Part shown: in pieces, positions 41,609 through 57,204 of the stretch | Position numbering within the stretch: position 1 is the first letter of the stretch | Layout of the letters: each line of letters opens with the position of its first letter | DNA from: Phycisphaerae bacterium | GTDB lineage: Bacteria > Planctomycetota > Phycisphaerae > UBA1845 | Length of the DNA: 64,000 nt | Direction: 5' to 3' | Assembly (NCBI GenBank): GCA_035356615.1 | Contig: DAOQSN010000013.1 | Location: forward strand, 28,882 to 92,881 | Program-made: the position numbers and the translations under genes | Notes under the pieces: model-generated | Databases searched by the model: none | What the model saw: only the letters and a program-made list of their open reading frames with translations | Told to the model about the DNA's origin: nothing

Positions 41609-44600
41609 TCATGGACCGGTGAACGCCTGCTGAAAGGCCGCCACGTCGGCCAGGTCCACGTCGTCATCGCCGTCGAAGTCCAGCGTGCCGCAATCAGGAA
41701 ACACGCCCCCCCGCGGGCCGGTCAGGCAGTCGGCAAGGGCGGTCAGGTCGTCGTAGTCCACGCGTCCATCGCCGTCCGCGTCGCCGTTGGCGCGCCGCAG
41801 CGCCCGCACCACTCGGAAGCCTATCTGAGCGAGCGTCGAGCGCGGATCGGCGAAGTTGCGCCGGTTGGTCGCCAGGCTCTCCGAACCGGTGGGTGGATGC
41901 ACGGTGCTGTAGCTGCCGCCGCGGACGGTACGAACGGCGAAGCTGCCCGGCGTGTAACGTCCCTGTAACCACTGATAGACGTTGCCGGACATGTCGAAGA
42001 GCTGGAACGTATTGGCATTGGCGTTCGTGGTGAACGAACCGCCGTGGTTCGAGCCGTCGTAGTAGCCCACCGGCGTGGTGCTGTTGTCGAACGGGTCGCC
42101 GCTGTTCTTGTAGTTGGCATCCGCGCCGGTCAGCGTGTCGCGTCCGCAGCCGTACACGGTGTTGCGCGCGAGGACGCTGTTCCAGGCGGCGGCCTTATAC
42201 CATTCGTTGTAGCCGTCGGCGAAGTCGACGCTGACGTCCGGGTTGTTGTAGCCTTCGTCCATCGGCAGGCGGTACCCGCGGTAGTTCTCCACCAGGGCAA
42301 GGCGTTCGTCATCGTTCAGGTCACGCGTGGACCACAGCGTGCCCGTTGCGGTGACCGGGCGCCAGCCCGCCAGGTCCGCGTCGCTGGCTTCGTTGTAGCA
42401 ACGCTGCTCCGGGCTCATCCCCTGGTCCAGCGTGAGCCAGTTGCAGTACTTCAGGGCCCCGTACCAGCTTGCGCCCGTAACGGGGTGGGCTTCGTAGCCG
42501 GTCTGCACCGAGTACATTTGCGTGCCGTCGTCGTAACTGATCCGCCCCCCCGCGGCCGGCGCAAACATCTTCACCGTGCGCGTGCCGGGCGAGGCTCCGG
42601 TTTCGCGCGCGGCGGTCGTGTTCACATACACGTCGCCCGTCGTCGTGTGGAAGAACATGTACGCACCGCGCGGGGCCGCAGACGTGGTTAGCGCGTCGTT
42701 CAGAAACGCCGCGAACTCGGCGTTGGTGGTGTGATACGCGGACATCTCGAAGTTGTACGCCGGCCCGCCCGGTTGGAGCACGTCCGCCGCGACGTGCGCC
42801 GACGACACGGCGAAGTGTGGATTCACCAGCGTCAGGCTCACGAGCCGCGTGCAGCTTACCGCGTTGGTGAGGTCGGTAAACACGACTTCGGCCTGGTTCT
42901 CGCCTTCCTGCAAGGGGGGGATGGTGGCGTTGCCCACGTCAATGGCGACGACGATGTGCGTCGTGCCGGCAGACGGGAGACTATCGACCACCGGCCCGGT
43001 CCCGCCGTTCAGCAGCACCCAACTGTTTGGTTCCGACGATTCGGCCCGCCACTGGATCGCGCCCGTGTCGTAATTCACGAGCGTGTAGATCGCCGTGGGA
43101 TCCAGGATCGGCCCCCCGGGCACGCCGTAGGCGGTCAAGCCGGTTCGCGGTCCAACCGAAAGCGTCTCCACAATGTGCAGGCGAACCGTCCGCGTCTGCA
43201 CGTGACCCGTGTAGGTGTCCGTGAACTGCACGGTGCCAACATACGTACCGTGGTACAACTGCAGTGCCAGCTCGTTCACCGAGACCGTCATGGTCGCAGG
43301 CGCGCCGCCGGGCAGCACCGTCACGGTGGCGGAACCGACATCCAGCCAATCCACGTCGGCCGCCACGTGAACGTCGATGCCCCTGTCCGTGCGGGCATTT
43401 GTAAGTGTATAGACTTGGAAGGGCAGCGGATCCAGCTCCGGCCCGACCTCCCAGGGGTCCTCGGTCGGCGTGATGAAGATCGGGTCCTGGACCACCACCG
43501 TGACCGTCTCCTCGAGCGTGGCCGAGAGGTTGTCGTTGCCGGGGTCAGTGAAGCGAAAGACCAGCACGGCGTCGTATTCTCCCACCGCCAGAGAGGCGGC
43601 GTCCTCATCCACGCTTACGTCGAAAGACAGGCCGGCGCCCGGCGTGAGCGTCCCGCTGAGCGGGTACTGCCCCGTGATGGACACCCACGGTTGGGCACAG
43701 CTTACCTGATATTGCAGGTTGAAACTTACGAGGCTGCTCAACGCAAACGTGCACGGGTTCGGGTTGATAAACGGGCCGCCGTAGAAACCGGTGAAGACGG
43801 CCGCGTCGTCCGGCGGCGTGACCGCGATGGGCCAGGCGACGTTCACGGTGGCGTTGCGGGTGCGGACTTCATTGGTCCGCGTGTTGCGCCAGGTGGCGAC
43901 GGCCACGTGGGTACCGGGGCCGAGGGCGTTGGCCTCACTGTTGAGCGTGAGGGTCACGGCGCCCTGTTGCCCGGCGTCCAGCGTGCCGCTCGCCTGCCCA
44001 GGCGTCGGCCCGGTGACGGTCAGCCAGGTCTTGTCCGCAGTCAGAGCCCACGGCATCGCGGCAGCCGAGCGGTTGGTGACCTCATAAAGCTGCGTCGTCC
44101 CCGCGGCCTGGCCGGAGCGGTACATACCGGCGTAACTGATACCGCCGCCCGGAGTCAGCAGGAACGGCTCGCGCAGATGCAGTAGGACAAAGCGTTTCTG
44201 CGTGGCACCGCTGAGAGAGTCGGTTACCGTGATCGCCGCCACCCGGCCGGGGTTGCGGACCACCCGAAACCCGACTTGGGCGTCGGCGAGGTCGGGCGCC
44301 AGCGGCTGGCGGGTGGCGTTGGTCAAGTACGCCGACTCCGGCGCGTCATCCCACCCACCGCCGCGCGCCGCCTGTTGCAGGTACGCATTTCCCTGCACCC
44401 ATTCGGCTGCGTTACCACATAGGTCGAACAAAGCGAACCCGTTGCCGGACGCGGTCGTCGGCGTTTCGCCGTCGCCGAGCACGTTTGCGCCATCGAAGAA
44501 ACCACGTGGTGTGGTTCCGCCGACTGTACAATCGTCCTCGTCCTCGAACGGGTCACCGCTGCACCGGAAGTTCGCGTCAGCGGCCGTCAGGGTACCGCGT

Positions 44601-47600
44601 CCGAAGCCGTAGGTGTGCTCGCCACCGGTCGCGTCGTCCCAGGCGGCCGCCTTGTACCACTCGTTGTAGCCACTTGCGCCCGCCTCGGCATCCAGCGGCA
44701 GGCGATAGCCTATGGTCTCGGCTACTATGTTTGCCGGGTCGAATGCCCCGGCAATCCAGTCGGCATCGCTTACGGTAACGGGGTGCCAGCTACTCAAGGC
44801 CGTGCTCGGGGCTTCCGTGTAGACGCGCAGCTCGGGCGGCAGGCCCGCGTTCAGGGTCAGCCAGTTACAATATTTGAGGGCTCCGTACCAGGTTACACCG
44901 GTAACGGGGTGATCCGTGTACCCGTCGTCAACCACGTAAGCGCCGCCGACAAACTGTATATGGCCCGCGCCGGCATCGTAGAGCAGCGGTCCTGCCCCGT
45001 CCGTACCCGCGGCGGGTTCCTGCGTGTCGTGTATATGCACATTGCCGGAGTCAGTGTCGAAATACATGTACTCGCTGCGTGGCCCCGGGTCAACCCCCAC
45101 GGCATCCTGATACGCGTTGTTGAGGAAGGCGGCGAAGTCGCTGTTGCGCACCTCGAATTGCGCCACCCAGTAGTCGTAGGCGGGCCCGCCGGGCTGAGCG
45201 GCATCTGCCGGCACCCAGGCACCGCTGCCCGGCGGTGCGGGTGACACACCGAGCGTATCCACCGCTTCTGACACCCGCAAACGTGCCTCCGCGGTGGCAC
45301 CGGGCGGAACGCGCGGACCGGCCGAGGTGTCCAGGGCCAGCCAGGCGGCGTCAACCGTCACGGACAACGTGTCCAGCGTGTAATCGCCCGCGTTCTCGAT
45401 GGCGAGAACGAACTCGGCAAGATCGTAGGGGCCGCCGACGTACGCCTCCAGACGCTGGGGGGGTACGGGAGTGAGATCGAACTGTGTAAGTGTGTCGGGG
45501 AGGGCCTGCGCCACTCGAAAGCCGAGGAACCGGTAGGCCGCGCTTGCTGCCTGCGAGTTGCGCCCGTCCGCGCGCAGGAGCGGCGCTTGAATCGCGTTGG
45601 TGTAGTTGCCGCCGCGCGTGGCGCGTTCCGAAGCGGTGCCGCCCACGTCCTGCATCCATTCGGATACGTTGCCCGTCATGTCATAGAGGCCGTAGCCGTT
45701 GGCCGTGTCGTTGGTGATGATCGGCCCGGCGATCTCGTGCACCCCATCATAGAACCCCACCGGTGTGGTGTCGGCGAAGGGATCAAGACTCAAGTAGAAG
45801 TTCGCATCGGCGACGGTAATCACGTTGCGCCCGAAACCGTAGTCGGCGTACAGGACGGTCTCCGGCAGCCAGGCCGCCGCCTTGTACCATTCGTTGTAGG
45901 TGCTGACCGCCGCGGCTCCGTCGTCCACGGGCAGGCGGAAGCCGCGCCATTGCCGCAGCTCCGCCGGCGTGCCGAGGGGGCACCACTGATCGGCCGGGTA
46001 GCCTTCGTGATACACCCGCTGGCCGGACATACCGTGAATGAGCGTCAGCCAGTTGCAGAACTTCAAGGCGCCGTACCACGAGACGCCGCCGACAGGGTGG
46101 TTCTCGAAGCCGCTCTGCGGGACGTAGCGACCGCCGGTGAAGCTGATGTAACCGTTGGCGGCCGCATCGAAGAGGACCGTGCCCGTTCCACTGGTTCCCT
46201 GGGTACCGGTCTGCGACGTGTGCAGGTAGACGTTGCCGCTGTCCACGTCGAAATACAGCCACGCGCCGCGTTCGTTGTTGACGTTGGCGAGCGCGTCATT
46301 GAGGAACAGGCAGTATTCGTGGTTGGTGACCTCGAAGCGGCCGATGCGGAAATTGTACGCAGGGGGGGCCGCGGCGTCGCCGGTGACCAGCGCCAGGTCG
46401 AGGACCACGCCGGCCGCGGTGATGACGAGCGTCACGCGGCGGGTGCTCTCGAACGCCGGTTCGAAGGTGGTGTCCGTGAAGATCAGGTCGCCGACGTACA
46501 CGCCCGCCGGCAACTGCGCCGCCACGTCGTTCGGTTCGATGGTCACCAGGGTGCTGCCGTTGGGCTCCAGGATCAGCCCTTCGGTCGGGTTGACGTCGAG
46601 CCAGTCGGCGCCGGACTCCGGGACAAACTCGGCTGACCACCAGCGCTCGCCGAGGGCATTGCCCGCCAGCGTGCAGGACGACGAAGGCGGGGTGAACTCC
46701 CCCCCGAGCGGGCGCGTGAAGCTGATATCGCCGGCCGGCGTTACCCAGTCGTTCACGGTCAGTCCGATGGTACGCTCCACGGTGAAGCCGCTGCCTGGAT
46801 CGTGCTGGAACCGCAGCGTGCTGTCATAGCTGCCGATGTCGAGGATCTCGGCCGCGTAGGTGAGCGTCGCGGCGACCTGCGTGCTGCCCAGCGCGGGGAG
46901 CGTACCCTGATAAGTGTTCAGGGCAAACCAGCTCGACGTCGGTTGTACCTCAACGCGCCAGGGAAGCGTCTCGCTCGCAAGGTTGCTGATCTGCCACTGG
47001 TGTTGCGCCGGCGCGAAGGGTCCCCCGGCCGGGCCGCTGAACAGTTGCGTGCCTGATGGTGCCACCGAGAACCACGGCAACACTTGCAGACTGACCGCGC
47101 GGACCCAGACGCTCCCCGTGCAGCCGTCTGCGAACGTCACCTCCGCAGTGAAGGTGCCGAGGTCCAGGCCGGCGGCCGCACCGGCGTCGATCGCAATGGT
47201 GACCGGCGCGGTGCCCTGCGCCGGGACTTCCCCGCCGACCGGCGGCTGGGTACCGTTCAGCGTCAGCCAATCCAGCCCCGAGGGCGTCGCCGTCGTTTCC
47301 TCCCAGGTGGCCGACCAGAGCACCGGCAGGTCCGAACCGTTCGTGAGTGTATACAGCTTGCTCCCCGGATTCGGCGTCCCACGATAGCGCATCGACGCCG
47401 CCAGGCCGCCGGAGGGCTCGACGTTCAGGGGCTCCGTAACCGTCAGGCGCAGGAGACGCTCGATGACCGTTCCCGGCGGCGGACCATACACAATACCCAC
47501 GGTGCCGATGTTCTCGCCCAGCGTCAGTTCATCGGTCGCGCACGCCGGCGCGACACGCACCGTGAACGCGTAGCTCTCCCCGGGGACCAGCGTGACGTTG

Positions 47601-48856
47601 ACTGGCAGACCGCCCTCGACCTCCAGCCACTCCGCGTCCAGCGTCACGCTGAACGTCGCGTCCTGGTCCGTCACGTTCGTTACGGTGTACTCGCGCGCGC
47701 CGGCGGCATCACTGTAGGGTCCGCCCCACGGTCCTGATACGACGTAGTCAGCCTGCGGCGTCACGAGTACGTCATCGTGCACCGCCTGCACGACGCGGAA
47801 CCCCGTGACGTTGCTGGTCGAATTCGCCGCCCGGTCGGCCCCGAGTGCCGTACGTAGCGAGGACGTCGTGCTGTTCCATGATCCGCCGCGATTGCGCCGG
47901 TCGGTGGCGGCCACGCCTTGATCCTGCATCCATTCCCATATGTTCCCGGAGGCATCATACAGACCGTAATAGTTCTGCTCCGCGTTGGTTTGATAGGTTC
48001 CGCCGTGGTCGCTACCATCGTAATACGCGACGGGCGTGGTGCCGTTGTCGAACGGGTCGCCGCTGTAGCGGAAGTTCGCGTCCGGCCCCGTAATCACATC
48101 CCGCCCGAAGCCGTACAGATGGTTGCAGCCGGCGGGCAGACAGCTCTCGTCCCAGGCGGCGGCCTTGTACCACTCATTGTAAACGGCCGCCGCGTCCGTG
48201 CGGGCGTCCATGGGCAGGCGATAGCCGAGATAGCCCAGCAACGCCTCGCGTTCCGCGCTGTTCAGGTCCCGCACCGCCCAGTTGGCAGCGCTGATCGTGA
48301 CCGGGCGCCAGCCCGACAAGTTCGTGTTCGCAGCCTCGCCATAGACGCGTTCAGCAGCGGTAAGCCCCGTTGCTAGCGTCAGCCAGTTGCAGTACTTGAG
48401 CGCCCCATACCATGACACGCCGATGACCGGATGCTGCTCGCAGCCGGACGCGATCAGGTAGACCCCCTGCCCGACGTTGTAGCTGAGGCAGCCGCCGACG
48501 GCCGCGCTGAACATCAACGTCCCCGACCCCGACGTACCCTTCTGGCCGGTGCTGCTGGTGTTGATGTACACGTCACCGCTGTCGGTATCGAAGTACAGGT
48601 ACGCGCCGCGCTCGTTGTTGAGGTTGTTGAGCGCGTCATTGAGGAACGCGGCGAACTGGGCGTTGGTCACCTCGTGCCTGCCGACGCGGAAGTCGTGCAC
48701 CGGCCCACCGGGTTGCCCATCAAGTCCGGGGACGTAGGTGAACTGCGGGACCGGCGGGTCCGCTTGCGTCGAAGCCACGACCCAAAGTACTGCCGCGATC
48801 GCGACGTCCACGGCGGGCTTGCGCCGCGTCGGTAGGCCACGCCAACGTGCAGCCAC
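41609..48856 (-). CDS. Giant (2415 aa) surface protein: 4 FGE-sulfatase-fold (SUMF1/EgtB/PvdO-like) domains separated by Ig-like spacers, with a C-terminal dockerin-like pair
   Basis: The signal anchor is AVDVAIAAVLWVVAST. FGE-fold units lie at about aa 50-358, 830-1117, 1222-1535 and 2028-2352. Each runs from F.(V/I)G..EVTN..F..FLND through HPV.GVSWYGALK(Y/F)CNWLT and YNEWYKAAAW to GFRV. The C-terminus is DADGDGRVDYDDL...DFDGDDDVDLADV. Confidence 0.85.
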   Translation of the reverse strand: MAARWRGLPTRRKPAVDVAIAAVLWVVASTQADPPVPQFTYVPGLDGQPGGPVHDFRVGRHEVTNAQFAAFLNDALNNLNNERGAYLYFDTDSGDVYINTSSTGQKGTSGSGTLMFSAAVGGCLSYNVGQGVYLIASGCEQHPVIGVSWYGALKYCNWLTLATGLTAAERVYGEAANTNLSGWRPVTISAANWAVRDLNSAEREALLGYLGYRLPMDARTDAAAVYNEWYKAAAWDESCLPAGCNHLYGFGRDVITGPDANFRYSGDPFDNGTTPVAYYDGSDHGGTYQTNAEQNYYGLYDASGNIWEWMQDQGVAATDRRNRGGSWNSTTSSLRTALGADRAANSTSNVTGFRVVQAVHDDVLVTPQADYVVSGPWGGPYSDAAGAREYTVTNVTDQDATFSVTLDAEWLEVEGGLPVNVTLVPGESYAFTVRVAPACATDELTLGENIGTVGIVYGPPPGTVIERLLRLTVTEPLNVEPSGGLAASMRYRGTPNPGSKLYTLTNGSDLPVLWSATWEETTATPSGLDWLTLNGTQPPVGGEVPAQGTAPVTIAIDAGAAAGLDLGTFTAEVTFADGCTGSVWVRAVSLQVLPWFSVAPSGTQLFSGPAGGPFAPAQHQWQISNLASETLPWRVEVQPTSSWFALNTYQGTLPALGSTQVAATLTYAAEILDIGSYDSTLRFQHDPGSGFTVERTIGLTVNDWVTPAGDISFTRPLGGEFTPPSSSCTLAGNALGERWWSAEFVPESGADWLDVNPTEGLILEPNGSTLVTIEPNDVAAQLPAGVYVGDLIFTDTTFEPAFESTRRVTLVITAAGVVLDLALVTGDAAAPPAYNFRIGRFEVTNHEYCLFLNDALANVNNERGAWLYFDVDSGNVYLHTSQTGTQGTSGTGTVLFDAAANGYISFTGGRYVPQSGFENHPVGGVSWYGALKFCNWLTLIHGMSGQRVYHEGYPADQWCPLGTPAELRQWRGFRLPVDDGAAAVSTYNEWYKAAAWLPETVLYADYGFGRNVITVADANFYLSLDPFADTTPVGFYDGVHEIAGPIITNDTANGYGLYDMTGNVSEWMQDVGGTASERATRGGNYTNAIQAPLLRADGRNSQAASAAYRFLGFRVAQALPDTLTQFDLTPVPPQRLEAYVGGPYDLAEFVLAIENAGDYTLDTLSVTVDAAWLALDTSAGPRVPPGATAEARLRVSEAVDTLGVSPAPPGSGAWVPADAAQPGGPAYDYWVAQFEVRNSDFAAFLNNAYQDAVGVDPGPRSEYMYFDTDSGNVHIHDTQEPAAGTDGAGPLLYDAGAGHIQFVGGAYVVDDGYTDHPVTGVTWYGALKYCNWLTLNAGLPPELRVYTEAPSTALSSWHPVTVSDADWIAGAFDPANIVAETIGYRLPLDAEAGASGYNEWYKAAAWDDATGGEHTYGFGRGTLTAADANFRCSGDPFEDEDDCTVGGTTPRGFFDGANVLGDGETPTTASGNGFALFDLCGNAAEWVQGNAYLQQAARGGGWDDAPESAYLTNATRQPLAPDLADAQVGFRVVRNPGRVAAITVTDSLSGATQKRFVLLHLREPFLLTPGGGISYAGMYRSGQAAGTTQLYEVTNRSAAAMPWALTADKTWLTVTGPTPGQASGTLDAGQQGAVTLTLNSEANALGPGTHVAVATWRNTRTNEVRTRNATVNVAWPIAVTPPDDAAVFTGFYGGPFINPNPCTFALSSLVSFNLQYQVSCAQPWVSITGQYPLSGTLTPGAGLSFDVSVDEDAASLAVGEYDAVLVFRFTDPGNDNLSATLEETVTVVVQDPIFITPTEDPWEVGPELDPLPFQVYTLTNARTDRGIDVHVAADVDWLDVGSATVTVLPGGAPATMTVSVNELALQLYHGTYVGTVQFTDTYTGHVQTRTVRLHIVETLSVGPRTGLTAYGVPGGPILDPTAIYTLVNYDTGAIQWRAESSEPNSWVLLNGGTGPVVDSLPSAGTTHIVVAIDVGNATIPPLQEGENQAEVVFTDLTNAVSCTRLVSLTLVNPHFAVSSAHVAADVLQPGGPAYNFEMSAYHTTNAEFAAFLNDALTTSAAPRGAYMFFHTTTGDVYVNTTAARETGASPGTRTVKMFAPAAGGRISYDDGTQMYSVQTGYEAHPVTGASWYGALKYCNWLTLDQGMSPEQRCYNEASDADLAGWRPVTATGTLWSTRDLNDDERLALVENYRGYRLPMDEGYNNPDVSVDFADGYNEWYKAAAWNSVLARNTVYGCGRDTLTGADANYKNSGDPFDNSTTPVGYYDGSNHGGSFTTNANANTFQLFDMSGNVYQWLQGRYTPGSFAVRTVRGGSYSTVHPPTGSESLATNRRNFADPRSTLAQIGFRVVRALRRANGDADGDGRVDYDDLTALADCLTGPRGGVFPDCGTLDFDGDDDVDLADVAAFQQAFTGP

Positions 48857-51279: not shown

Positions 51280-51498
51280 CTACTGCGCTGGCGCAGCACA
51301 CCCAGATGATCCGGGCGCCTTGGGCGGTACCGCTTGAGGCGGAGCGGGTGTACCCCCGAGGATTCGCTGCTTCCAATCCGGCCAAGTTCCGACCACCCTA
51401 CTGGCCTGCTCCAAATGCTCGACGAACGCATCGCGTTGTCCTTGGTGCGCCTTTGCTTGAACCGGCATTTGCTTCGCTTTCTGCTTGTCAACCTCCAT
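51280..51498 (-). CDS. Small ORF (72 aa from the ATG) overlapping the stop of the deaminase gene; candidate partner protein
   Basis: The ATG at 51498..51496 is preceded by GGAG with a 7-nt spacer and overlaps the deaminase TGA (51490..51488) by 11 nt. The sequence is MEVDKQKAKQMPVQAKAHQGQRDAFVEHLEQASRVVGTWPDWKQRILGG followed by a Pro-rich tail. Confidence 0.4.
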   Translation of the reverse strand: MEVDKQKAKQMPVQAKAHQGQRDAFVEHLEQASRVVGTWPDWKQRILGGTPAPPQAVPPKAPGSSGCAAPAQ

Positions 51499-53341
51499 TG
51501 CCAAGCTCCGTGACCGCGCTGCGGGCTTTGTTGAACATGTCTCCGGCGACGAACTCCAGGTCCAGGTACGACGCGGGCAACATCTGGAGCCGGAGCCCGC
51601 TTTGCCCAGCCTTCCACTCCATCACCCGCCCCGCTACGTTCTTCCGCTCCACAGGATACCCGGAACCGAGCCGGATTGAAAAGAGGTCGAAAAACCGCCG
51701 GGGACCAACGCCGACGAAGGGCTCGAAGCATACCATCCGGCGGTCATCAGGCGGGGACCCCAGGTCGGCAAAACCGACCTGGATCGAGTCCGAATGAAAC
51801 TCGGCAGCCTTCGACTTCTCGTACGGCTCGATGAACACAACACGGTGGATTCCAGCCCCCACAATGTGCTTGGCGCAGTTGTGGCACGGGAAGGTGGTGC
51901 AGTAGAGTGTGCCGCCTTGGGTAGGCGCTCGGATTCGACCGCAGGAAAGCAGAGCGTCCATTTCCGCGTGCACTACGCGCCCAAACTCGGTCAAGTCGCG
52001 GATACGGCTTGCGTCGAGGGCCTCACGGACCTTCTCGCGGTCAAGCCCAGTCTTCTCCGCGCGGTCTAGGATCTCATCGATGATCTTCTGCTGTTCGACC
52101 TTGTTGGAATCTTCGCCCCTCATGTAATCGCGCCCGTCCTCCTGGTCCTCGATCCGGTGCGTCTTGGGATTGCGCACGGGCCAATATCGTCCGCCGTTTG
52201 CACGAGGGCAGTCATTGGCACCGGTGGCGACGACCTGCTCGTCGACCGCCACGACGGCGCCGACTTGACGGGACAGGTCGGCGGAGCTGAGTGAAGCCGC
52301 GAAGGCGAGAAACATGGCGTACTCATCGAAAGTCGGGGTCACGTACGGGTTCCCGAAGAGGAGTTCGAGAATCCGCCACACGCTGTCTTTCAGATGGTCG
52401 TCCTGCCCATCGATCCGCACGAAGAAGTCGGAGAGGTGAAACGTGTCGGCAACTCTCTGGCCGTGGGGTAGGTGCTCGTTCTCATCGCGGTCGATGAGCT
52501 CGTTCGCCTTGGCGTCGGATATCGATTTGTCTTTGGTCAGGTAGTCAAACCGCCGTTTTTCGTCAGCATGCACACCGATGAGGTAGAACCCCTGCGGATA
52601 GATCTCGCGCAGACGACCAACCTCGTCGGGGTGTTTGAGCGAACTGATGACGTACGCACACCTGGGTACATGTTGCGGGCACCCGTTCTCGTCCTTGCTC
52701 CTTTGGGAGTTGATGTACGCGGCAGCGCCAAGAGCCAGTATCGAGTTGTCACCTGATGTAGCGCGCGCCTCGTTCCCCGCATCCATGAGGCCACTGAGCC
52801 GATCGTATTCGGAGCTTCCGGAACGTGGGATGTTCTCGACGATCTTCGGGATCACGTCTTGCGTGATCCGGATCTGTCTGACCGAGTAGCCAGCCTTTCT
52901 TAGCCAGTCGTCGAGAATACCCCGCACCTTCTGCAGCTCTGTGCCGACCGCTCCAATCAGTGCAAACACCAACTCGGACTCGGAGAAGGCCCTCTGCAAC
53001 AGCCCAGACCGACCTGCCCCTGACTCTGCTGTTGCCATGGGCACGGGGACTGTGACTTCAGCACCGTGTCTCTCCGGGACAGTTTCCCTCTGCGGCGTCA
53101 AGCCGGGCGCAGCATCGACGGGCGTACCCGTGAGAGCGGCAATGACCTCGTCACGCAACTTCTCCGCACCAGGCGAGTTGCCTTGGAAGGTGAGCGATCC
53201 GGTCGACGGGTACCAGTTCAGGACTCCGCCTGCGGGCGTTCGGAGTTGCTTCTGGTTCGGGTTCAAATCGCGCCACACACCACTGATGTGCTGGAGCTTC
53301 TCCCTGAACTCCTCGTAGCTGCCGGTAAACCGTACGTTCAT
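51488..53341 (-). CDS. Anti-phage dCTP/deoxycytidylate deaminase (AvcD-like: kinase-like P-loop-derived domain + zinc deaminase) with an extra N-terminal module
   Basis: The C-terminal deaminase reads TPTFDEYAMFLAFAASLSSADLSRQVGAVV, HAEMDAL (zinc His plus catalytic Glu) and TTFPCHNCAKHI (PCxxC). The middle region ELVFALIGAVGTELQKV...YVISSLKHPDEV..LREIYPQGFYLIGV has the layout of the nucleotide-kinase-like domain of the defence deaminases. Residues 1-75 are additional. Confidence 0.82.
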   Translation of the reverse strand: MNVRFTGSYEEFREKLQHISGVWRDLNPNQKQLRTPAGGVLNWYPSTGSLTFQGNSPGAEKLRDEVIAALTGTPVDAAPGLTPQRETVPERHGAEVTVPVPMATAESGAGRSGLLQRAFSESELVFALIGAVGTELQKVRGILDDWLRKAGYSVRQIRITQDVIPKIVENIPRSGSSEYDRLSGLMDAGNEARATSGDNSILALGAAAYINSQRSKDENGCPQHVPRCAYVISSLKHPDEVGRLREIYPQGFYLIGVHADEKRRFDYLTKDKSISDAKANELIDRDENEHLPHGQRVADTFHLSDFFVRIDGQDDHLKDSVWRILELLFGNPYVTPTFDEYAMFLAFAASLSSADLSRQVGAVVAVDEQVVATGANDCPRANGGRYWPVRNPKTHRIEDQEDGRDYMRGEDSNKVEQQKIIDEILDRAEKTGLDREKVREALDASRIRDLTEFGRVVHAEMDALLSCGRIRAPTQGGTLYCTTFPCHNCAKHIVGAGIHRVVFIEPYEKSKAAEFHSDSIQVGFADLGSPPDDRRMVCFEPFVGVGPRRFFDLFSIRLGSGYPVERKNVAGRVMEWKAGQSGLRLQMLPASYLDLEFVAGDMFNKARSAVTELGNGG

Positions 53342-53399
53342 GTGTTGCCTCGGTTAGCTGGCTTTGCGTCTCAGCGCCGCTCGGCTGTGGGGACCCCAA

Positions 53400-53597
53400 C
53401 TACCCACCATCATACGACGTACTGCGCGGCAGGTCGAGTGGTTCCTCTGCTTCCTCCTGGTCGAGCACGTCCCAGCCCAGGGCCCTTAGTAACGGATTGA
53501 TCACCTTGCTGCGCGTGGGGGTCTCCTTGAGCTGCTCGCGGCGGAGCCTGGGAAGGCGGGCGCGCAGGTCCTCGATCTCTTTGATGAGCTGCTGCAT
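53400..53597 (-). pseudogene. Truncated HsdR_N-like ORF (65 aa); probable remnant of a restriction or other defence gene, or a small adaptor
   Basis: MQQLIKEIEDLRARLPRLRREQLKETPTRSKVINPLLRALGWDV matches the E.(Q/T)TR..(L/V)I.P.L..LGW opening of type I restriction-enzyme N-terminal domains, then stops after 20 acidic residues. GGAGG lies upstream. The ORF ends 58 nt before the deaminase start. Confidence 0.4.
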
Positions 53598-53916
53598 GGG
53601 ATGAGTACCTCCGGGAGTGCCACGACGACGCAAAGGAAACACCTCGACAGGGCTAACGCGTCGCGCGGGCTCATGTGGCGAATCGTAACCTGGGGGTCAG
53701 GTCGGTTCAAGGTCGAGCATCGAACCGGCCCGCTTGGGCGCGGGGATGGCAACCCAGGGGAACGTCTGCTGCTCGCTTTCCGCCTCGGCGGTCGGACGTA
53801 ACAGACACGCGCGGGAAATGACTGCCGGGTGACGACGTGCTCGGCATCCAGTTCGGCCCGTTCGAAGACTGCTCCGGCCGGGGAGCGCACCGGTGACGAT
53901 GGACGCGGGACGGCCT

Positions 53917-55212: not shown

Positions 55213-55800
55213 GATCGCCCCCGACCGGTGTGCCAGCGTGTCACGGCGCCCGCAGGGCGCCCGCTTCCCGGTGGGCATGTTATCGAGGCGTCTTCGGCGT
55301 CGTCAAGTGACTGCCTGCCACTGCACTTCAGTGACGCTGGATCCGACAGGGTTTCCGGTTCCGCGGGCCCGAGCTGCAATCCGGGCGGGGCTGGGCTGCC
55401 CTGACGGGGGCACGAGCCCGCACGGCCAGTCCGGCGTGCATCAGATCTCCTGCCGATACCGGGACGTGGCGTGTTGCACAACCAAAGGCAAGCAGCGGTT
55501 CCCATCCGATCTGCACACGACCTGCCTGGCGGTCCGATCTTCGAGCCCGCGCCGACGTCCCACCAGTCGCATTAGCGGACGCGCCCGCGGCAGCGGATGG
55601 GGTGGAAGAACTGCTCAACGCACATGGTTGTCGTCCCGATTCACCGTGTAGAACGGACTGCGGGGACGGGGCCCACTTGCCCTGGTGCCAATTCGTGGCG
55701 ATGCGGGGACAGGGACTACCCCGAGTGTCTTCCGGGCAGGTCTTGCGGGAGAGGATGCTGATACGCTGCGCTCGTTTCTCAGACCGACGGAGATCGCACG

Positions 55801-56070
55801 ATGGACGACGATGCGCTCGACCTTTGCGGGAAGATCTGCCCGTATCCCGTGGTGGCGATCGTCCGGGAAGTGGCGCGGCTGCGACCGGGCCAGAAGCTCC
55901 GGTGCATGGTGGACGATCCGCTCGCCCTGAAGTCGGTGCCCGAGGAACTGGAAGAGTTTCCCGATGTATCCCTCACGATCAGCAGCCGTGGCAGCGTGTG
56001 GGAAGTGATCGTGAAGAGACAGTTGAAAGGCAACCAGGACCATGAACATGAACGAGACCACGGGCCATAA
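55801..56070 (+). CDS. TusA/SirA-family sulfurtransferase
   Basis: LDLCGKICPYPVVAIVREV contains the CP.P active-site motif. The ORF is 89 aa. Confidence 0.8.
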   Translation: MDDDALDLCGKICPYPVVAIVREVARLRPGQKLRCMVDDPLALKSVPEELEEFPDVSLTISSRGSVWEVIVKRQLKGNQDHEHERDHGP

Positions 56071-56653
56071 CGCGCCGACTCCCGGCACCCGCGGTGTCAC
56101 GGAGCGGGCAGGGGGCGCCACTCGTCCCGATGTTGAGGAACGCCTCCGGCAGATTCCCACCGGGCAACCCGGGCGGGGAGAGACCGGCCGTCTGACCGAG
56201 CCCGCCTCTCCTGAGCCCCGCCGCACGACGCGGCGCAAGCTGAGCAACCCCCTGTTCCTCGTGGGCTGCTTCGCCGTCCTCAACGTCATCATGTACCTGA
56301 CCATCCAGAAGTTCTGGATCGGCGGCAGCAGCTTCCTGCCGTTGATCGGGATCCTGGGAGACAACCACGGCTTCCTCTTCGCTTTCCTGGTGAACGTCGG
56401 TGTCGTGGCGGGGGCCCTGGTGGGTGCACTCAGCAGTGGTGAGTTCCGCCTGCGGCTTCCCCGGAAAAGGGATTTGGCCAAAGCGATCGTGGGCGGGTTC
56501 CTGATCGGAATGGGTATCACGGTGGCGCCGGGCACGTGCACCACCGCCTTTGTCACCGGCATACCGATGCTCTCGGTGTCCTCGTTTCTGTCGGTGGCGG
56601 GCATCTTCATCGGCGCTCATCTGATATACGGCCACACCCTGGGGAGGCAATAG
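56042..56653 (+). CDS. YeeE/YedE-family sulfur-compound transport membrane protein (first half-size unit)
   Basis: The polytopic C-terminal 130 aa contain IVGGFLIGMGITVAPGTCTTAF. The first ~70 aa are disordered, so the true start may lie downstream. Confidence 0.6.
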   Translation: MNMNETTGHNAPTPGTRGVTERAGGATRPDVEERLRQIPTGQPGRGETGRLTEPASPEPRRTTRRKLSNPLFLVGCFAVLNVIMYLTIQKFWIGGSSFLPLIGILGDNHGFLFAFLVNVGVVAGALVGALSSGEFRLRLPRKRDLAKAIVGGFLIGMGITVAPGTCTTAFVTGIPMLSVSSFLSVAGIFIGAHLIYGHTLGRQ

Positions 56654-56655
56654 AC

Positions 56656-57200
56656 ATGTCATTTCCACTGCTGGCAACGCTGGGCGTGTTGTTCGGGATC
56701 GGCTTCGGCTACTTCGTGCAGCGGGCGGGGCTCTGCTTCGCCCACGGCCTGGGGGAGATCTACTTAGGCAGAGGCAAGCGTATTACCCGGATGTTCCTGG
56801 TGGTGTTTACGATCACCAGCGTGGGCTTCCTCCTGAGCGGGTATGTTTCTGACGCGCTGGGGCTGAAGGCCGTCGGCCAACTGCGCGGCTTTGGGTTCTA
56901 CAACGTGCTGTCCGGCATTCTGTTTGGGGCGGGGATTGCCCTGTGCGGCGGCTGCATTCTGGGTACCCTGCGCCAGCTCGGCGAGGGGAACCTCATGTAC
57001 CTGGTCGTGCTGGTTGCCTTGATTCCGGGAATGGCCCTGGTCGTGTACGGCCTCGATCCGCTCCTGGAGAAGGGTTACCACGTGGAGAAGCTCCTGCTTC
57101 CCGGACTGTTGGGCGTCGCGGCGCCGTACGTGACGGCCACGCTGGCAGCCGGTGCCGTGATCTGGTTCCTGGCCATCCGCAAGCGGACTCCTCGGACACG

Positions 57201-57204
<4 letters not shown>
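56656..57204 (+). CDS. YeeE/YedE-family sulfur-compound transport membrane protein (second unit)
   Basis: The ATG at 56656 follows directly after the upstream [19 protein letters not shown] and [13 protein letters not shown] are the conserved Cys-containing helices. Confidence 0.75.

What the first reader, a model, noticed from the sequence alone, without database searches (positions are those of the whole stretch)
51488..53341. AvcD/dCTP-deaminase-type anti-phage gene embedded between housekeeping genes
The 617-aa protein joins a kinase-like domain with a degenerate P-loop (ELVFALIGAVGTEL) to a zinc deoxycytidylate-deaminase domain (HAEMDAL...PCHNC). This is the architecture described for nucleotide-depleting defence deaminases, namely the dCTP deaminase defence genes and Vibrio AvcD. 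A hand count gives 58 G+C per 100 nt at 52383..52482, against 65 per 100 at 48001..48100. This hints at, but does not prove, foreign origin. The flanks contain a truncated restriction-like ORF and a small overlapping ORF, reported separately.
Basis: partly seen in the sequence, partly recalled or inferred. Interest (0 to 1): 0.65.

Follow-up and report, generated by a model that had tools for sequence, protein, structure and literature searches.

The report
Anti-phage dCTP deaminase with small partner
The gene is an ordinary member of the known family of bacterial anti-phage dCTP deaminases (already named so in NCBI), but it has two undescribed extras: a small N-terminal module and a tiny, widely conserved partner gene whose core also occurs in phage proteins.

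Summary
It scores above the curated cut-off of NCBIfam's anti-phage dCTP deaminase equivalog (460 vs 400 bits) and matches PADLOC dCTPase at E = 1.6e-161. An identical protein is already named 'anti-phage dCTP deaminase' in NCBI (Phycisphaerae MAG). The structure model shows a P-loop-kinase-like domain plus a dCMP-deaminase domain, with HAE/PCHNC intact. ComEB is excluded (58 vs 219 bits). The gene sits in the lowest-GC 2.4 kb of the window, and its closest relatives lie in DISARM-like or R-M islands.

Two things are new relative to the papers I could search.

1. Residues 1-72 form a separate β-α-β4-α (TBP-like) module. The same module is fused elsewhere to CAP12-type TIR (PADLOC PDC-S35) and to DUF1653.
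2. A 72-aa ORF (51280..51498, minus strand) overlaps the deaminase stop codon. Its core (F..HL..A...V..WPxWKQ..LG) follows the deaminase in at least 50 of 85 loci across phyla, including E. coli P4-like satellites. It is under purifying selection (pN/pS 0.22) and is fused in-frame to the deaminase twice. It also recurs in phage proteins (phiTE_068, D3 orf44, and MazG, radical-SAM and helicase fusions).

The role of both features is inferred only. Verdict: a known system with an undescribed accessory layer.

The parts
51488..53341 (-). Anti-phage dCTP deaminase gene (AvcD/DcdV family), 617 aa, ATG start, TGA stop
   Evidence: The ORF is and its translation. Matches: PADLOC dCTPase at E = 1.6e-161; NCBIfam NF041025 at 460 bits against a 400-bit cut-off. 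The 100%-identical protein P0001 is named 'anti-phage dCTP deaminase [Phycisphaerae bacterium]'.
53126..53341 (-). N-terminal module, aa 1-72 (β-α-β4-α, TBP-like fold); probably a sensor or regulatory domain
   Evidence: It matches only PADLOC PDC-S35, at E = 6.8e-9; there is no Pfam or PDB sequence match. A profile search finds 796 cluster representatives. Elsewhere it is fused to the CAP12/Pycsar TIR domain and to DUF1653. AF2 gives pLDDT 91.5 with topology S1-H1-S2-S3-S4-S5-H2. The best fold hits are the RNase H3 N-domain 4py5 (E = 4e-3, TM 0.64) and RnlA/LsoA N-domain-like viral proteins.
52988..53125 (-). Disordered Pro/Ala/Thr-rich linker, aa 73-118
   Evidence: pLDDT is about 30. Sequence and length vary among homologues.
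52337..52987 (-). P-loop-kinase-like domain, aa 119-335, with the family motif (G/A)LIGAVGT (aa 127-134) in place of a canonical Walker A
   Evidence: The model has pLDDT about 90. Foldseek matches adenylate-kinase-related 3h0k/3lw7 (E = 3e-5, TM 0.80), CoaE 6n39 and AK 6ln3. The motif is conserved; position 127 is G in 87, A in 12 and S in 1 of 100 homologues.
51674..52330 (-). Zinc dCMP/dCTP-deaminase domain, aa 338-556, with HAE (458-460) and PCHNC (485-489)
   Evidence: Pfam dCMP_cyt_deam_1 at E = 1.5e-15. PDB sequence and fold hits to the dCMP deaminases 1vq2, 2w4l and 2hvw and to the bifunctional dCMP/dCTP deaminase 7fh4. HAE and PCHNC are present in 119 of 120 homologues.
51280..51498 (-). 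Small partner gene, 72 aa, whose ATG overlaps the deaminase stop (ATGGAGGTTGA). Its core is DAFVEHLEQASRVVGTWPDWKQRILGG ('WPxWK' module).
   Evidence: Sequence. The profile hits 50 of 20,049 six-frame ORFs in 85 loci; all are on the deaminase strand and 47 lie at the deaminase stop. In L081 and L082 the module is fused in-frame to the deaminase C-terminus. pN/pS is 0.22 and codon-position differences are 83/78/161. It is present in the closest relatives and annotated 'hypothetical protein' in E. coli. It matches phrog_38465 at E = 5e-6.
53400..53642 (-). Short ORF 5' of the deaminase, same strand (65 aa from the ATG at 53597). It is probably the remnant of the N-terminus of a restriction enzyme. 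It also occupies the position where AvcI/DifV RNA lies in Vibrio.
   Evidence: Weak matches: HSDR_N (17.8 bits, E = 0.003), and PADLOC REase_MTase_IIG and PDC-M54B. It is not conserved in related loci. There is no Rfam hit, and the RNA fold z-score is +1.85.
53409..53437 (-). Sigma-70-like promoter match (TCGACC-17-TATGAT), about 70 nt upstream of the deaminase ATG
   Evidence: This is a consensus scan only: 1 site against 0.3 expected. It is weak evidence.
51280..53642 (.). Low-GC cassette (61.0% against 67.6%) holding the three elements above, flanked by a DUF4190 membrane-protein gene and a HemN-like radical-SAM gene
   Evidence: It is the lowest-GC stretch of its length in the window. Neighbours are identified.

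Best explanation
The ORF encodes a true member of the anti-phage dCTP deaminase family (the AvcD/DcdV family of Vibrio; the 'dCTP deaminase' of Tal et al.). It was acquired horizontally by a Phycisphaerae chromosome as a cassette of about 2.4 kb. By homology, the enzyme is held inactive in uninfected cells. When a phage shuts down host gene expression, it deaminates dCTP (and dCMP) to deoxyuridine nucleotides. That starves phage DNA replication of dC. Both the zinc deaminase domain and the P-loop-kinase-like domain are needed in the characterised relatives. The catalytic steps are inferred from conserved residues and from experiments on relatives at roughly 33-50% identity; none was shown here. 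This copy has two extra parts. One is an N-terminal TBP-like module on a disordered tether. The other is a translationally coupled 72-aa partner protein with a WPxWK core. The partner is shown here to be a real, selected gene that is physically and evolutionarily tied to this deaminase clade. I infer that these two parts form the control or targeting layer of the system, meaning that they keep the enzyme off, sense infection, or dock it to a partner. The reasons are that they are the variable, swappable parts of the family, that they tend to replace each other, and that the partner's core also occurs in phage early and replication-associated proteins.
For: Family identity: PADLOC dCTPase at E = 1.6e-161; NCBIfam equivalog at 460 bits against a 400-bit cut-off; an identical NCBI protein already so named. 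Architecture: the AF2 model (pLDDT 78) has fold matches to nucleotide kinases and dCMP/dCTP deaminases. HAE and PCHNC are intact, as is the family nucleotide-binding motif. The equivalent residues are essential in E. coli AW1.7 and V. cholerae (bioRxiv 10.1101/2021.04.26.441389; 10.1101/2021.03.31.437871). Foreign origin: the cassette is the lowest-GC segment of the window, with lower GC3. The family is patchy across more than 8 phyla at 42-64% identity. There is no synteny with relatives of the HemN-like neighbour. A restriction-enzyme N-terminal remnant lies next to it. Defence context of the closest relatives: XamI/Eco57I-type R-M, DISARM-like islands, hsdS-deaminase-hsdR operons, and the P4-like satellite hotspot in E. 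coli and Klebsiella. Partner gene. The N-module and the partner are anti-correlated: 8 of 30 loci against 46 of 53, Fisher p = 9e-8. The module occurs in phages.
Against: No biochemical or phage-challenge data exist for this protein or its subclade. The experimentally tested proteins appear to belong to more distant clades, such as L090-type proteins at about 33% identity that lack the partner gene. In this window the only neighbouring defence-like element is a degenerate fragment, so the local context is not a defence island. The first glycine of the nucleotide-binding motif is Ala here, a minority state seen in 12% of homologues. The regulatory role of the N-module and the partner is inference only. 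The TBP-like fold assignment rests on individually weak Foldseek hits (E = 4e-3 to 6e-2). The anti-correlation is not corrected for phylogeny. Fusion of the WPxWK module to unrelated phage enzymes argues against a simple deaminase-specific antitoxin.
Confidence: 0.85

Rival explanations
1. This is an AvcID-type type III toxin-antitoxin system. The deaminase would be held off by a labile non-coding RNA encoded immediately 5' of the gene on the same strand, in the 575-nt spacer that contains the HSDR_N-like small ORF. The small downstream protein would then be secondary.
For: In Vibrio, Proteus and ETEC, AvcI/DifV lies immediately 5' of the gene, is co-transcribed, is 152-280 nt long, and coincides with an annotated small hypothetical ORF. 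There is no sequence conservation between species (10.1101/2021.03.31.437871; PMC10511110). The window has a same-strand small ORF and a 575-nt spacer in exactly that position. A small upstream ORF is also seen in L005, L090 and L124.
Against: There is no Rfam match. The 299 nt upstream fold less well than shuffled controls (z = +1.85). The upstream sequence is not conserved in any related locus. In the closest relatives the upstream gene is a full-length 1332-aa enzyme ending 110 nt before the deaminase. The only conserved upstream element found is the coding end of hsdS. The downstream protein gene, by contrast, is conserved.
Confidence: 0.15
2. It is a housekeeping nucleotide-metabolism enzyme (a ComEB/dCMP deaminase fused to a kinase) that supplies dUMP for thymidylate synthesis, not a defence gene.
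For: The catalytic core is homologous to dCMP deaminases. The gene lies among ordinary chromosomal genes. JGI's automatic name is 'deoxycytidylate deaminase'.
Against: ComEB scores 58 bits against a 219-bit cut-off, while the anti-phage equivalog passes its own cut-off. The family distribution is sporadic across phyla. Composition is atypical. There is no conserved synteny. Close relatives sit in R-M or DISARM islands and in P4-like satellites.
Confidence: 0.03
3. It is a decaying or inactive relic. The cassette once belonged to a restriction-linked defence island that has eroded, as the truncated restriction-like ORF suggests, and the deaminase no longer works in defence.
For: The adjacent restriction-like ORF is truncated to about 65-80 aa. 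No intact defence gene lies within ±10 kb. Position 127 carries Ala instead of the majority Gly.
Against: The 617-codon ORF is intact, with all invariant catalytic and structural residues of the family. The partner ORF is also intact, and its translational coupling is preserved. The identical protein is found on 14 contigs from several samples with the same context. Ala at position 127 occurs in 12% of homologues.
Confidence: 0.08

Closest known systems
Anti-phage dCTP deaminase (Tal et al. 2022, E. coli AW1.7 / U09; DefenseFinder/PADLOC 'dCTPdeaminase'; NCBIfam NF041025)
   Same: A single polypeptide with an N-terminal kinase-like domain and a C-terminal zinc deaminase, longer than 350 aa. 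It passes the curated HMM cut-off. The Zn-binding and nucleotide-binding motifs are conserved. Relatives sit in defence islands.
   Different: The tested AW1.7 protein is 576 aa and was described as a single-gene system. From motif positions, it seems to belong to a more distant clade (about 33% identity, GFCGAVGSG-type) that lacks the downstream WPxWK gene. The window protein adds a 72-aa N-terminal module with a linker, and has the small partner gene.
AvcID / DcdV-DifV of Vibrio cholerae VSP-I (Hsueh et al. 2022, 2023)
   Same: The same P-loop-kinase plus dCMP-deaminase architecture and catalytic residues. It is expected to deaminate dCTP and dCMP and to be activated when host transcription is shut off.
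   Different: AvcD is controlled by the sRNA AvcI, encoded 5' of the gene. No such RNA could be detected here. Instead, a conserved protein-coding gene lies 3' of the deaminase and overlaps its stop codon.
PADLOC candidate system PDC-S35 (N-module + CAP12/Pycsar-type TIR domain)
   Same: It shares the 72-aa N-terminal module (E = 6.8e-9).
   Different: The effector domain is a TIR-like domain, not a deaminase. I found no paper on PDC-S35 in the searchable library.
RNase HIII N-terminal substrate-binding domain and RnlA/LsoA N-terminal domain (TBP-like, helix-grip fold)
   Same: The predicted topology is the same: five β-strands with two helices on one face. They are the best Foldseek matches (fold description in PMC3597702 and PMC4132731).
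   Different: There is no detectable sequence similarity. The matches are weak (E = 4e-3 to 6e-2). Nucleic-acid binding is not shown.
Housekeeping dCMP deaminase / ComEB
   Same: The same deaminase fold and the same HAE...PCxxC zinc site.
   Different: It is a single domain of about 150 aa, regulated allosterically by dCTP and dTTP. The window protein fails the ComEB model cut-off (58 vs 219 bits).

Membership tests
Anti-phage dCTP deaminase (NF041025 / PADLOC dCTPase / Tal et al.) | Score at or above the curated cut-off of the family's equivalog HMM | tested here: met
   460.2 bits against a 400-bit cut-off, covering aa 123-556 and profile positions 1-432 of 437. PADLOC dCTPase matches at E = 1.6e-161.
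Anti-phage dCTP deaminase (NF041025 / PADLOC dCTPase / Tal et al.) | N-terminal kinase-like domain and C-terminal cytidine/dCMP-type deaminase in one protein longer than 350 aa | tested here: met
   Pfam places a deaminase domain at aa 338-504. In the AF2 model, aa 124-330 match adenylate-kinase-related and CoaE folds, and aa 338-555 match dCMP deaminases. The definition is taken from 10.1101/2021.04.26.441389.
Anti-phage dCTP deaminase (NF041025 / PADLOC dCTPase / Tal et al.) | Zinc-binding and catalytic residues ([H/C]AE ... PCxxC) intact | tested here: met
   H458-A-E460 and P485-C-H-N-C489 are present. The same motifs occur in 119 of 120 homologues.
Anti-phage dCTP deaminase (NF041025 / PADLOC dCTPase / Tal et al.) | [quoted passage not shown] | tested here: met
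   The sequence A127-L-I-G-A-V-G-T134 matches the family motif (G/A)xxGAVG(T/S). Position 127 is Ala, as in 12% of homologues; Gly is found in 87%. The canonical Walker-A Lys is absent across the whole family.
Anti-phage dCTP deaminase (NF041025 / PADLOC dCTPase / Tal et al.) | Preferential location next to known defence systems | tested here: inconclusive
   In this window only a truncated restriction-like ORF is adjacent. The closest relatives (65-76% identity) lie in DISARM-like or R-M islands, and others lie in hsdS-deaminase-hsdR operons or P4-like satellite hotspots.
Anti-phage dCTP deaminase (NF041025 / PADLOC dCTPase / Tal et al.) | Infection-triggered conversion of dCTP to deoxyuridine nucleotides, and phage resistance | not testable with these tools
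   This needs heterologous expression, LC-MS of dNTP pools and plaque assays.
AvcID type III toxin-antitoxin system | Inhibitory sRNA (AvcI/DifV) encoded immediately 5' of the deaminase, same orientation, co-transcribed | tested here: inconclusive
   A same-strand small ORF and a 575-nt spacer occupy the right position. However, there is no Rfam hit, no excess RNA structure (z = +1.85) and no conservation in related loci. AvcI is not sequence-conserved even among proven systems, so its absence cannot be shown.
AvcID type III toxin-antitoxin system | Toxicity of the deaminase alone (filamentation), relieved by the cognate RNA | not testable with these tools
   This needs expression experiments.
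Housekeeping ComEB / dCMP deaminase | Score at or above the ComEB (TIGR02571) cut-off; single-domain protein of about 150 aa; conserved chromosomal synteny | tested here: not met
   58 bits against a 219.45-bit cut-off, matching only aa 455-511. The protein is 617 aa with three domains. None of 8 relatives of the neighbouring HemN-like gene has a deaminase nearby.
PADLOC PDC-S35 (candidate defence gene) | N-terminal 70-aa module followed by a CAP12/Pycsar-type TIR domain | tested here: not met
   The N-module matches (aa 4-70 against profile positions 3-71 of 245, E = 6.8e-9). The rest of the profile is not matched, because the effector here is the deaminase. TIR fusions are seen in P0160, P0213, P0218 and P0268.

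The most novel reading that the evidence does not exclude
The 50-75-aa WPxWK protein, encoded at the stop codon of the deaminase, is a previously unrecognised second component of a large clade of dCTP-deaminase defence systems. That clade includes the copies in E. coli and Klebsiella P4-like satellites. The protein would be an inhibitor or a trigger-sensing or docking subunit, taking the place that the sRNA AvcI holds in Vibrio. Phages carry the same ~26-aa module in early and replication-associated proteins (phiTE_068/CB5 gp09, D3 orf44, and MazG, radical-SAM and RecG-like fusions). They would do so either to neutralise the system by mimicry or because both sides dock to the same replication or nucleotide-metabolism partner. 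The N-terminal TBP-like module, shared with TIR effectors, would be an alternative input domain.
Probability: 0.3. Interest if true: 0.75.

Novelty: new variant of a known kind. Interest (0 to 1): 0.5.

Why it matters
The core gene adds nothing new: NCBI's pipeline already names it. How dCTP-deaminase defence is switched on, however, is only understood for the Vibrio AvcI RNA. For the many family members without a recognisable AvcI, the control mechanism is open. A conserved, translationally coupled mini-protein that is sometimes fused to the enzyme and that shares its core with phage early proteins is a concrete candidate for that missing control or targeting layer. It is cheap to test: delete it, co-express it, pull it down. 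It is present in culturable hosts and phages, namely E. coli P4-like satellites, Photorhabdus, Acinetobacter, and the phages phiTE, CB5 and D3. The N-terminal module, shared between deaminase and TIR effectors, is likewise a candidate portable sensor domain. If either proves to be a regulator, current single-gene definitions of this system in DefenseFinder and PADLOC would need amending.

Tried and rejected
1. A protein search with the N-module alone found nothing because of the word filter, which wasted one search. The profile search then worked.

2. A search for an AvcI-like RNA gave no support. Rfam had nothing, and the upstream 299 nt fold worse than shuffles. An all-against-all comparison of 82 upstream regions did find a conserved element, but it is the coding C-terminus of HsdS, not an RNA.

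3. I tried to find an 'empty site' or synteny using the HemN-like neighbour. Relatives at 60-83% identity share none of the other neighbours, so the insertion boundaries could not be defined.

4. I tested whether the HSDR_N-like fragment is a remnant of the MmeI-like gene found upstream in the closest relatives. There was no supporting similarity.

5. The simple 'deaminase-specific antitoxin, with phage copies as antitoxin mimics' reading of the small protein is weakened. In phages the module is fused to unrelated enzymes: MazG, radical SAM and a RecG-like helicase.

6. Similarity of the WPxWK core to the villin headpiece was seen for 4 of 40 members at E ≥ 0.006. The PDB profile search did not recover it, so I treat it as a lead only.

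8. The published Hsueh et al. 2022 paper (PMC9830645) is not held, so I used its preprint instead.

9. The 331-aa ORF at 55615..56610 (minus strand) is probably spurious. Called genes on the other strand (TusA and two Sulf_transp genes) cover it.
Full report
OBSERVATION. The ORF at 51488..53341 is real: ATG to TGA, 617 codons. It is on the minus strand; the plus-strand reading is full of stop codons.

The region 51280..53642 is the lowest-GC stretch of its length in the whole window, at 61.0% against a mean of 67.6% (sd 2.0%). Only 0.24% of windows are as low. GC3 of the gene is 0.74, against 0.80-0.88 in the neighbours.

WHAT IT IS. The protein matches PADLOC's dCTPase model at E = 1.6e-161. 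It scores 460 bits on NCBIfam NF041025, 'anti-phage dCTP deaminase', an equivalog with a 400-bit cut-off. The housekeeping ComEB model reaches only 58 bits against a 219-bit cut-off. A 100%-identical protein is already in NCBI as 'MAG TPA: anti-phage dCTP deaminase [Phycisphaerae bacterium]', and it occurs on 14 metagenomic contigs with the same context.

An AlphaFold model built from 30 homologues (pLDDT 78) has four parts:
- an N-terminal module, aa 1-72;
- a disordered linker, aa 76-117;
- a well-predicted α/β domain, aa 124-330;
- a deaminase domain, aa 338-555, followed by a C-terminal helix.

Foldseek matches the third part to adenylate-kinase-related proteins (3h0k/3lw7, TM 0.80), CoaE and adenylate kinase. 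It matches the fourth to the dCMP deaminases of S. mutans, T4 and human, and to the bifunctional dCMP/dCTP deaminase of PBCV-1. The catalytic HAE and zinc-binding PCHNC are present, as in 119 of 120 homologues. The family's nucleotide-binding motif (G/A)xxGAVG(T/S) is also present, with Ala at position 127, as in 12% of homologues.

These are the features that define the family in the two founding studies. Both domains are required for defence in E. coli AW1.7 and for activity in V. cholerae DcdV/AvcD (10.1101/2021.04.26.441389; 10.1101/2021.03.31.437871).

CONTEXT. The neighbours are ordinary chromosomal genes:
- a HemN-like radical-SAM gene;
- TusA and sulfur-transporter genes;
- a PocR hybrid histidine kinase;
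- a DUF4190 membrane protein;
- a 2415-aa protein with four FGE-sulfatase domains;
- FtsK.

The only defence-like neighbour is a truncated ORF 5' of the deaminase. It has weak matches to the N-termini of restriction enzymes (HSDR_N 17.8 bits; PADLOC type IIG). Relatives of the HemN-like gene at 60-83% identity carry no deaminase and none of the other neighbours. So there is no conserved synteny, but the insertion boundaries could not be defined either.

The family is scattered over Planctomycetota, Myxococcota, several classes of Pseudomonadota, Desulfobacterota, Chlorobiota, Bacteroidota, Verrucomicrobiota and Bacillota at 42-64% identity. It is also found on plasmids and in a few phages.

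The closest relatives lie in clear defence islands:
- P0009 (67% identity) is next to an XamI/Eco57I-type R-M system.
- P0002 (76%) and P0010 (65%) lie between an MmeI-like methyltransferase/endonuclease and a large helicase followed by an MZB (DUF1998) protein, plus a PLD nuclease. That arrangement is DISARM-like.
- Other relatives sit between hsdS and hsdR.
- Others sit in the psu-int hotspot of P4-like satellites in E. coli and Klebsiella.

THE N-TERMINAL MODULE. Residues 1-72 are not part of the NCBIfam model (which starts at aa 123) and are absent from about 40% of the close homologues. They match only PADLOC's candidate PDC-S35 (E = 6.8e-9). There is no Pfam or PDB sequence match.

A profile search of 1.84 billion cluster representatives finds 796 proteins. 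Most are deaminases or fragments. Some carry the CAP12/Pycsar-type TIR domain (P0160, P0213, P0218, P0268) or DUF1653 (P0260), and a few have tandem copies of the module.

Modelled alone, it is confidently predicted (pLDDT 91.5) as β-α-β4-α. That is the topology of a single TBP-like (helix-grip) domain, as described in PMC3597702. The best PDB match is the substrate-binding N-domain of RNase H3 (4py5, E = 4e-3, TM 0.64). In the viral library, RnlA/LsoA-N-domain-like proteins are among the top hits. These matches are individually weak, so the fold assignment is tentative. Its function, such as ligand, nucleic-acid or protein binding, is inferred only from its behaviour as a portable module placed in front of different defence effectors.

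THE SMALL PARTNER GENE. A 72-aa ORF (51280..51498, minus strand) starts at an ATG inside the last codons of the deaminase (ATGGAGGTTGA), with a GGAG 7 nt upstream. Gene callers did not call it on the source contigs.

Its core, DAFVEHLEQASRVVGTWPDWKQRILGG, is conserved downstream of the deaminase in relatives from many phyla. I built and iterated a profile from 12 seeds. It hit 50 of 20,049 six-frame open frames in 85 non-redundant loci (940 kb). All 50 hits are on the deaminase strand. Forty-seven begin within -26 to +73 nt of the deaminase stop. One lies 1.2 kb downstream. Two (L081, L082) are fused in-frame to the deaminase C-terminus.

Purifying selection at the protein level is clear. Pooled pN/pS is 0.22, and differences by codon position are 83/78/161. 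All of the closest relatives have the gene.

In E. coli it is annotated only as a 57-aa hypothetical protein, WP_000021256.1, starting 2 nt after the deaminase stop. A profile search of 5.8 billion proteins returned only 'hypothetical' entries with no Pfam family, and there is no PDB relative. I then started from three such hits chosen without reference to the deaminase, and each lies directly after an AvcD-type deaminase.

The more distant plasmid clade (about 33% identity, L090-type) probably includes the experimentally tested AW1.7 protein, judging from motif positions. It lacks the small gene.

AvcI/DifV, the known regulator in Vibrio, is an RNA encoded 5' of the gene (PMC9455884). It is therefore a different element. 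I found no paper describing the downstream protein, but the searchable library is incomplete.

THE SAME MODULE IN PHAGES. Other profile hits lie in phage contexts:
- after a portal gene, with a Mu-F gene downstream (L110);
- after a D5-primase/RecG-like helicase pair on an IMG/VR contig;
- in strings of small co-directional genes.

A scan of IMG/VR found 10 contigs with the WPEWKR-type core. In some it is stand-alone. In others it is fused to MazG, to a radical-SAM enzyme, or to an HNH plus RecG-like helicase. None of these loci has a deaminase. Their neighbours are phage genes, including a UvsX-like recombinase, a DNA methyltransferase, an exonuclease and baseplate proteins.

The window's own small protein matches phrog_38465 (E = 5e-6) and phrog_29728. 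In cultured phages the module occurs in Pectobacterium phages CB5 gp09 and phiTE_068 (profile E = 1e-10) and at the N-terminus of Pseudomonas phage D3 orf44 (E = 9e-7). These genes lie in early or recombination regions.

The core is therefore a portable mini-domain of about 26 aa, used by both defence deaminases and phages. That favours a docking or interaction role with a common partner. It weakens, without excluding, a simple deaminase-specific antitoxin model.

Across the 85 loci the N-module and the partner tend to exclude each other. The partner is present in 8 of 30 loci with the N-module and in 46 of 53 without it (Fisher p = 9e-8, not corrected for phylogeny). The window belongs to the minority that has both.

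MECHANISM.
- Shown here: family membership, domain architecture, intact catalytic motifs, atypical composition, the defence context of relatives, and the reality, conservation and linkage of the partner gene.
- Taken from the literature on relatives: deamination of dCTP/dCMP on infection, triggered by shut-off of host transcription, which depletes dC and blocks phage DNA replication.
- Inferred: that this copy works in the same way, and that the N-module and the WPxWK protein form its control or targeting layer.

An AvcI-like RNA in the 575-nt upstream spacer cannot be excluded, because AvcI is not sequence-conserved. Nothing supports it, however: there is no Rfam hit, the fold z-score is +1.85, and there is no conservation.

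VERDICT. The locus is a new variant only in its accessory parts. These are an uncharacterised N-terminal module shared with TIR effectors, and a small partner gene that is conserved and, as far as I could find, undescribed, with relatives in phages. Interest is moderate (0.5): low for the core gene, but higher for the partner gene, which offers a directly testable handle on how this widespread defence enzyme is regulated.

Noticed in passing
window 51280..51498 (-); related loci L005, L008-L089, L123-L125: A small 'WPxWK' protein gene overlaps or abuts the deaminase stop in at least 50 of 85 loci across phyla. It is fused in-frame to the deaminase in L081 and L082. In E. coli it is annotated only as a hypothetical protein (WP_000021256.1).
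   Followed up: yes
L110, L113-L122; phage D3 orf44 (L126:2396-3676), CB5 gp09 (L127:2333-2611), phiTE_068 (L128:2333-2611): The same ~26-aa core occurs in phage proteins. It is stand-alone in early regions, or fused to MazG, radical SAM, or HNH plus a RecG-like helicase. It matches phrog_38465 and phrog_29728, both of unknown function.
   Followed up: partly
window 53126..53341 (-); P0160, P0213, P0218, P0268, P0260, P0152, P0153: The 72-aa N-terminal module (predicted TBP-like fold) also occurs in front of CAP12/Pycsar-type TIR domains (the PADLOC PDC-S35 architecture) and DUF1653. It is also found as tandem repeats and as apparent stand-alone small proteins.
   Followed up: partly
85 related loci: Presence of the N-module and of the small partner gene is strongly anti-correlated (8 of 30 against 46 of 53; Fisher p = 9e-8, not corrected for phylogeny). 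This suggests they are alternative accessory parts.
   Followed up: partly
L019, L021, L030, L035, L042, L048, L058, L062, L072, L075, L078: In these loci the deaminase is embedded in type I R-M operons. The coding end of hsdS lies just upstream, and in several a ~1000-aa hsdR starts at or overlaps the deaminase stop (ATGA).
   Followed up: partly
window 53400..53642 (-): A truncated ORF with weak similarity to restriction-enzyme N-termini (ETPTRSKVINPLLRALGWDV). It is not conserved in any related locus. It is probably a remnant of a lost neighbouring restriction gene.
   Followed up: partly
A3 members: Four of 40 small-partner proteins give weak Pfam hits to the villin headpiece (best E = 0.006). 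From memory, the headpiece C-terminus ...LPLWKQQNLKKEKGLF resembles WPxWKQxxLGG. A PDB profile search did not recover it.
   Followed up: no
window 41609..48856 (-): A 2415-aa protein with four FGE-sulfatase (sulfatase-modifying-factor-like) domains and a BACON-like domain. It is unusually large for this domain family.
   Followed up: no
window 55615..56610 (-) versus 55801..57204 (+): The 331-aa minus-strand ORF has no family match. It is antisense to called TusA and two Sulf_transp genes on the plus strand, so it is probably spurious.
   Followed up: no
L088 (E. coli NZ_CP106924.1 55516-57211); L102/L103 (Klebsiella-type): The deaminase and small-partner pair occupies the psu-int cargo hotspot of P4-like satellites, next to tRNA-Sec. 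This gives a culturable model of the two-gene unit.
   Followed up: partly
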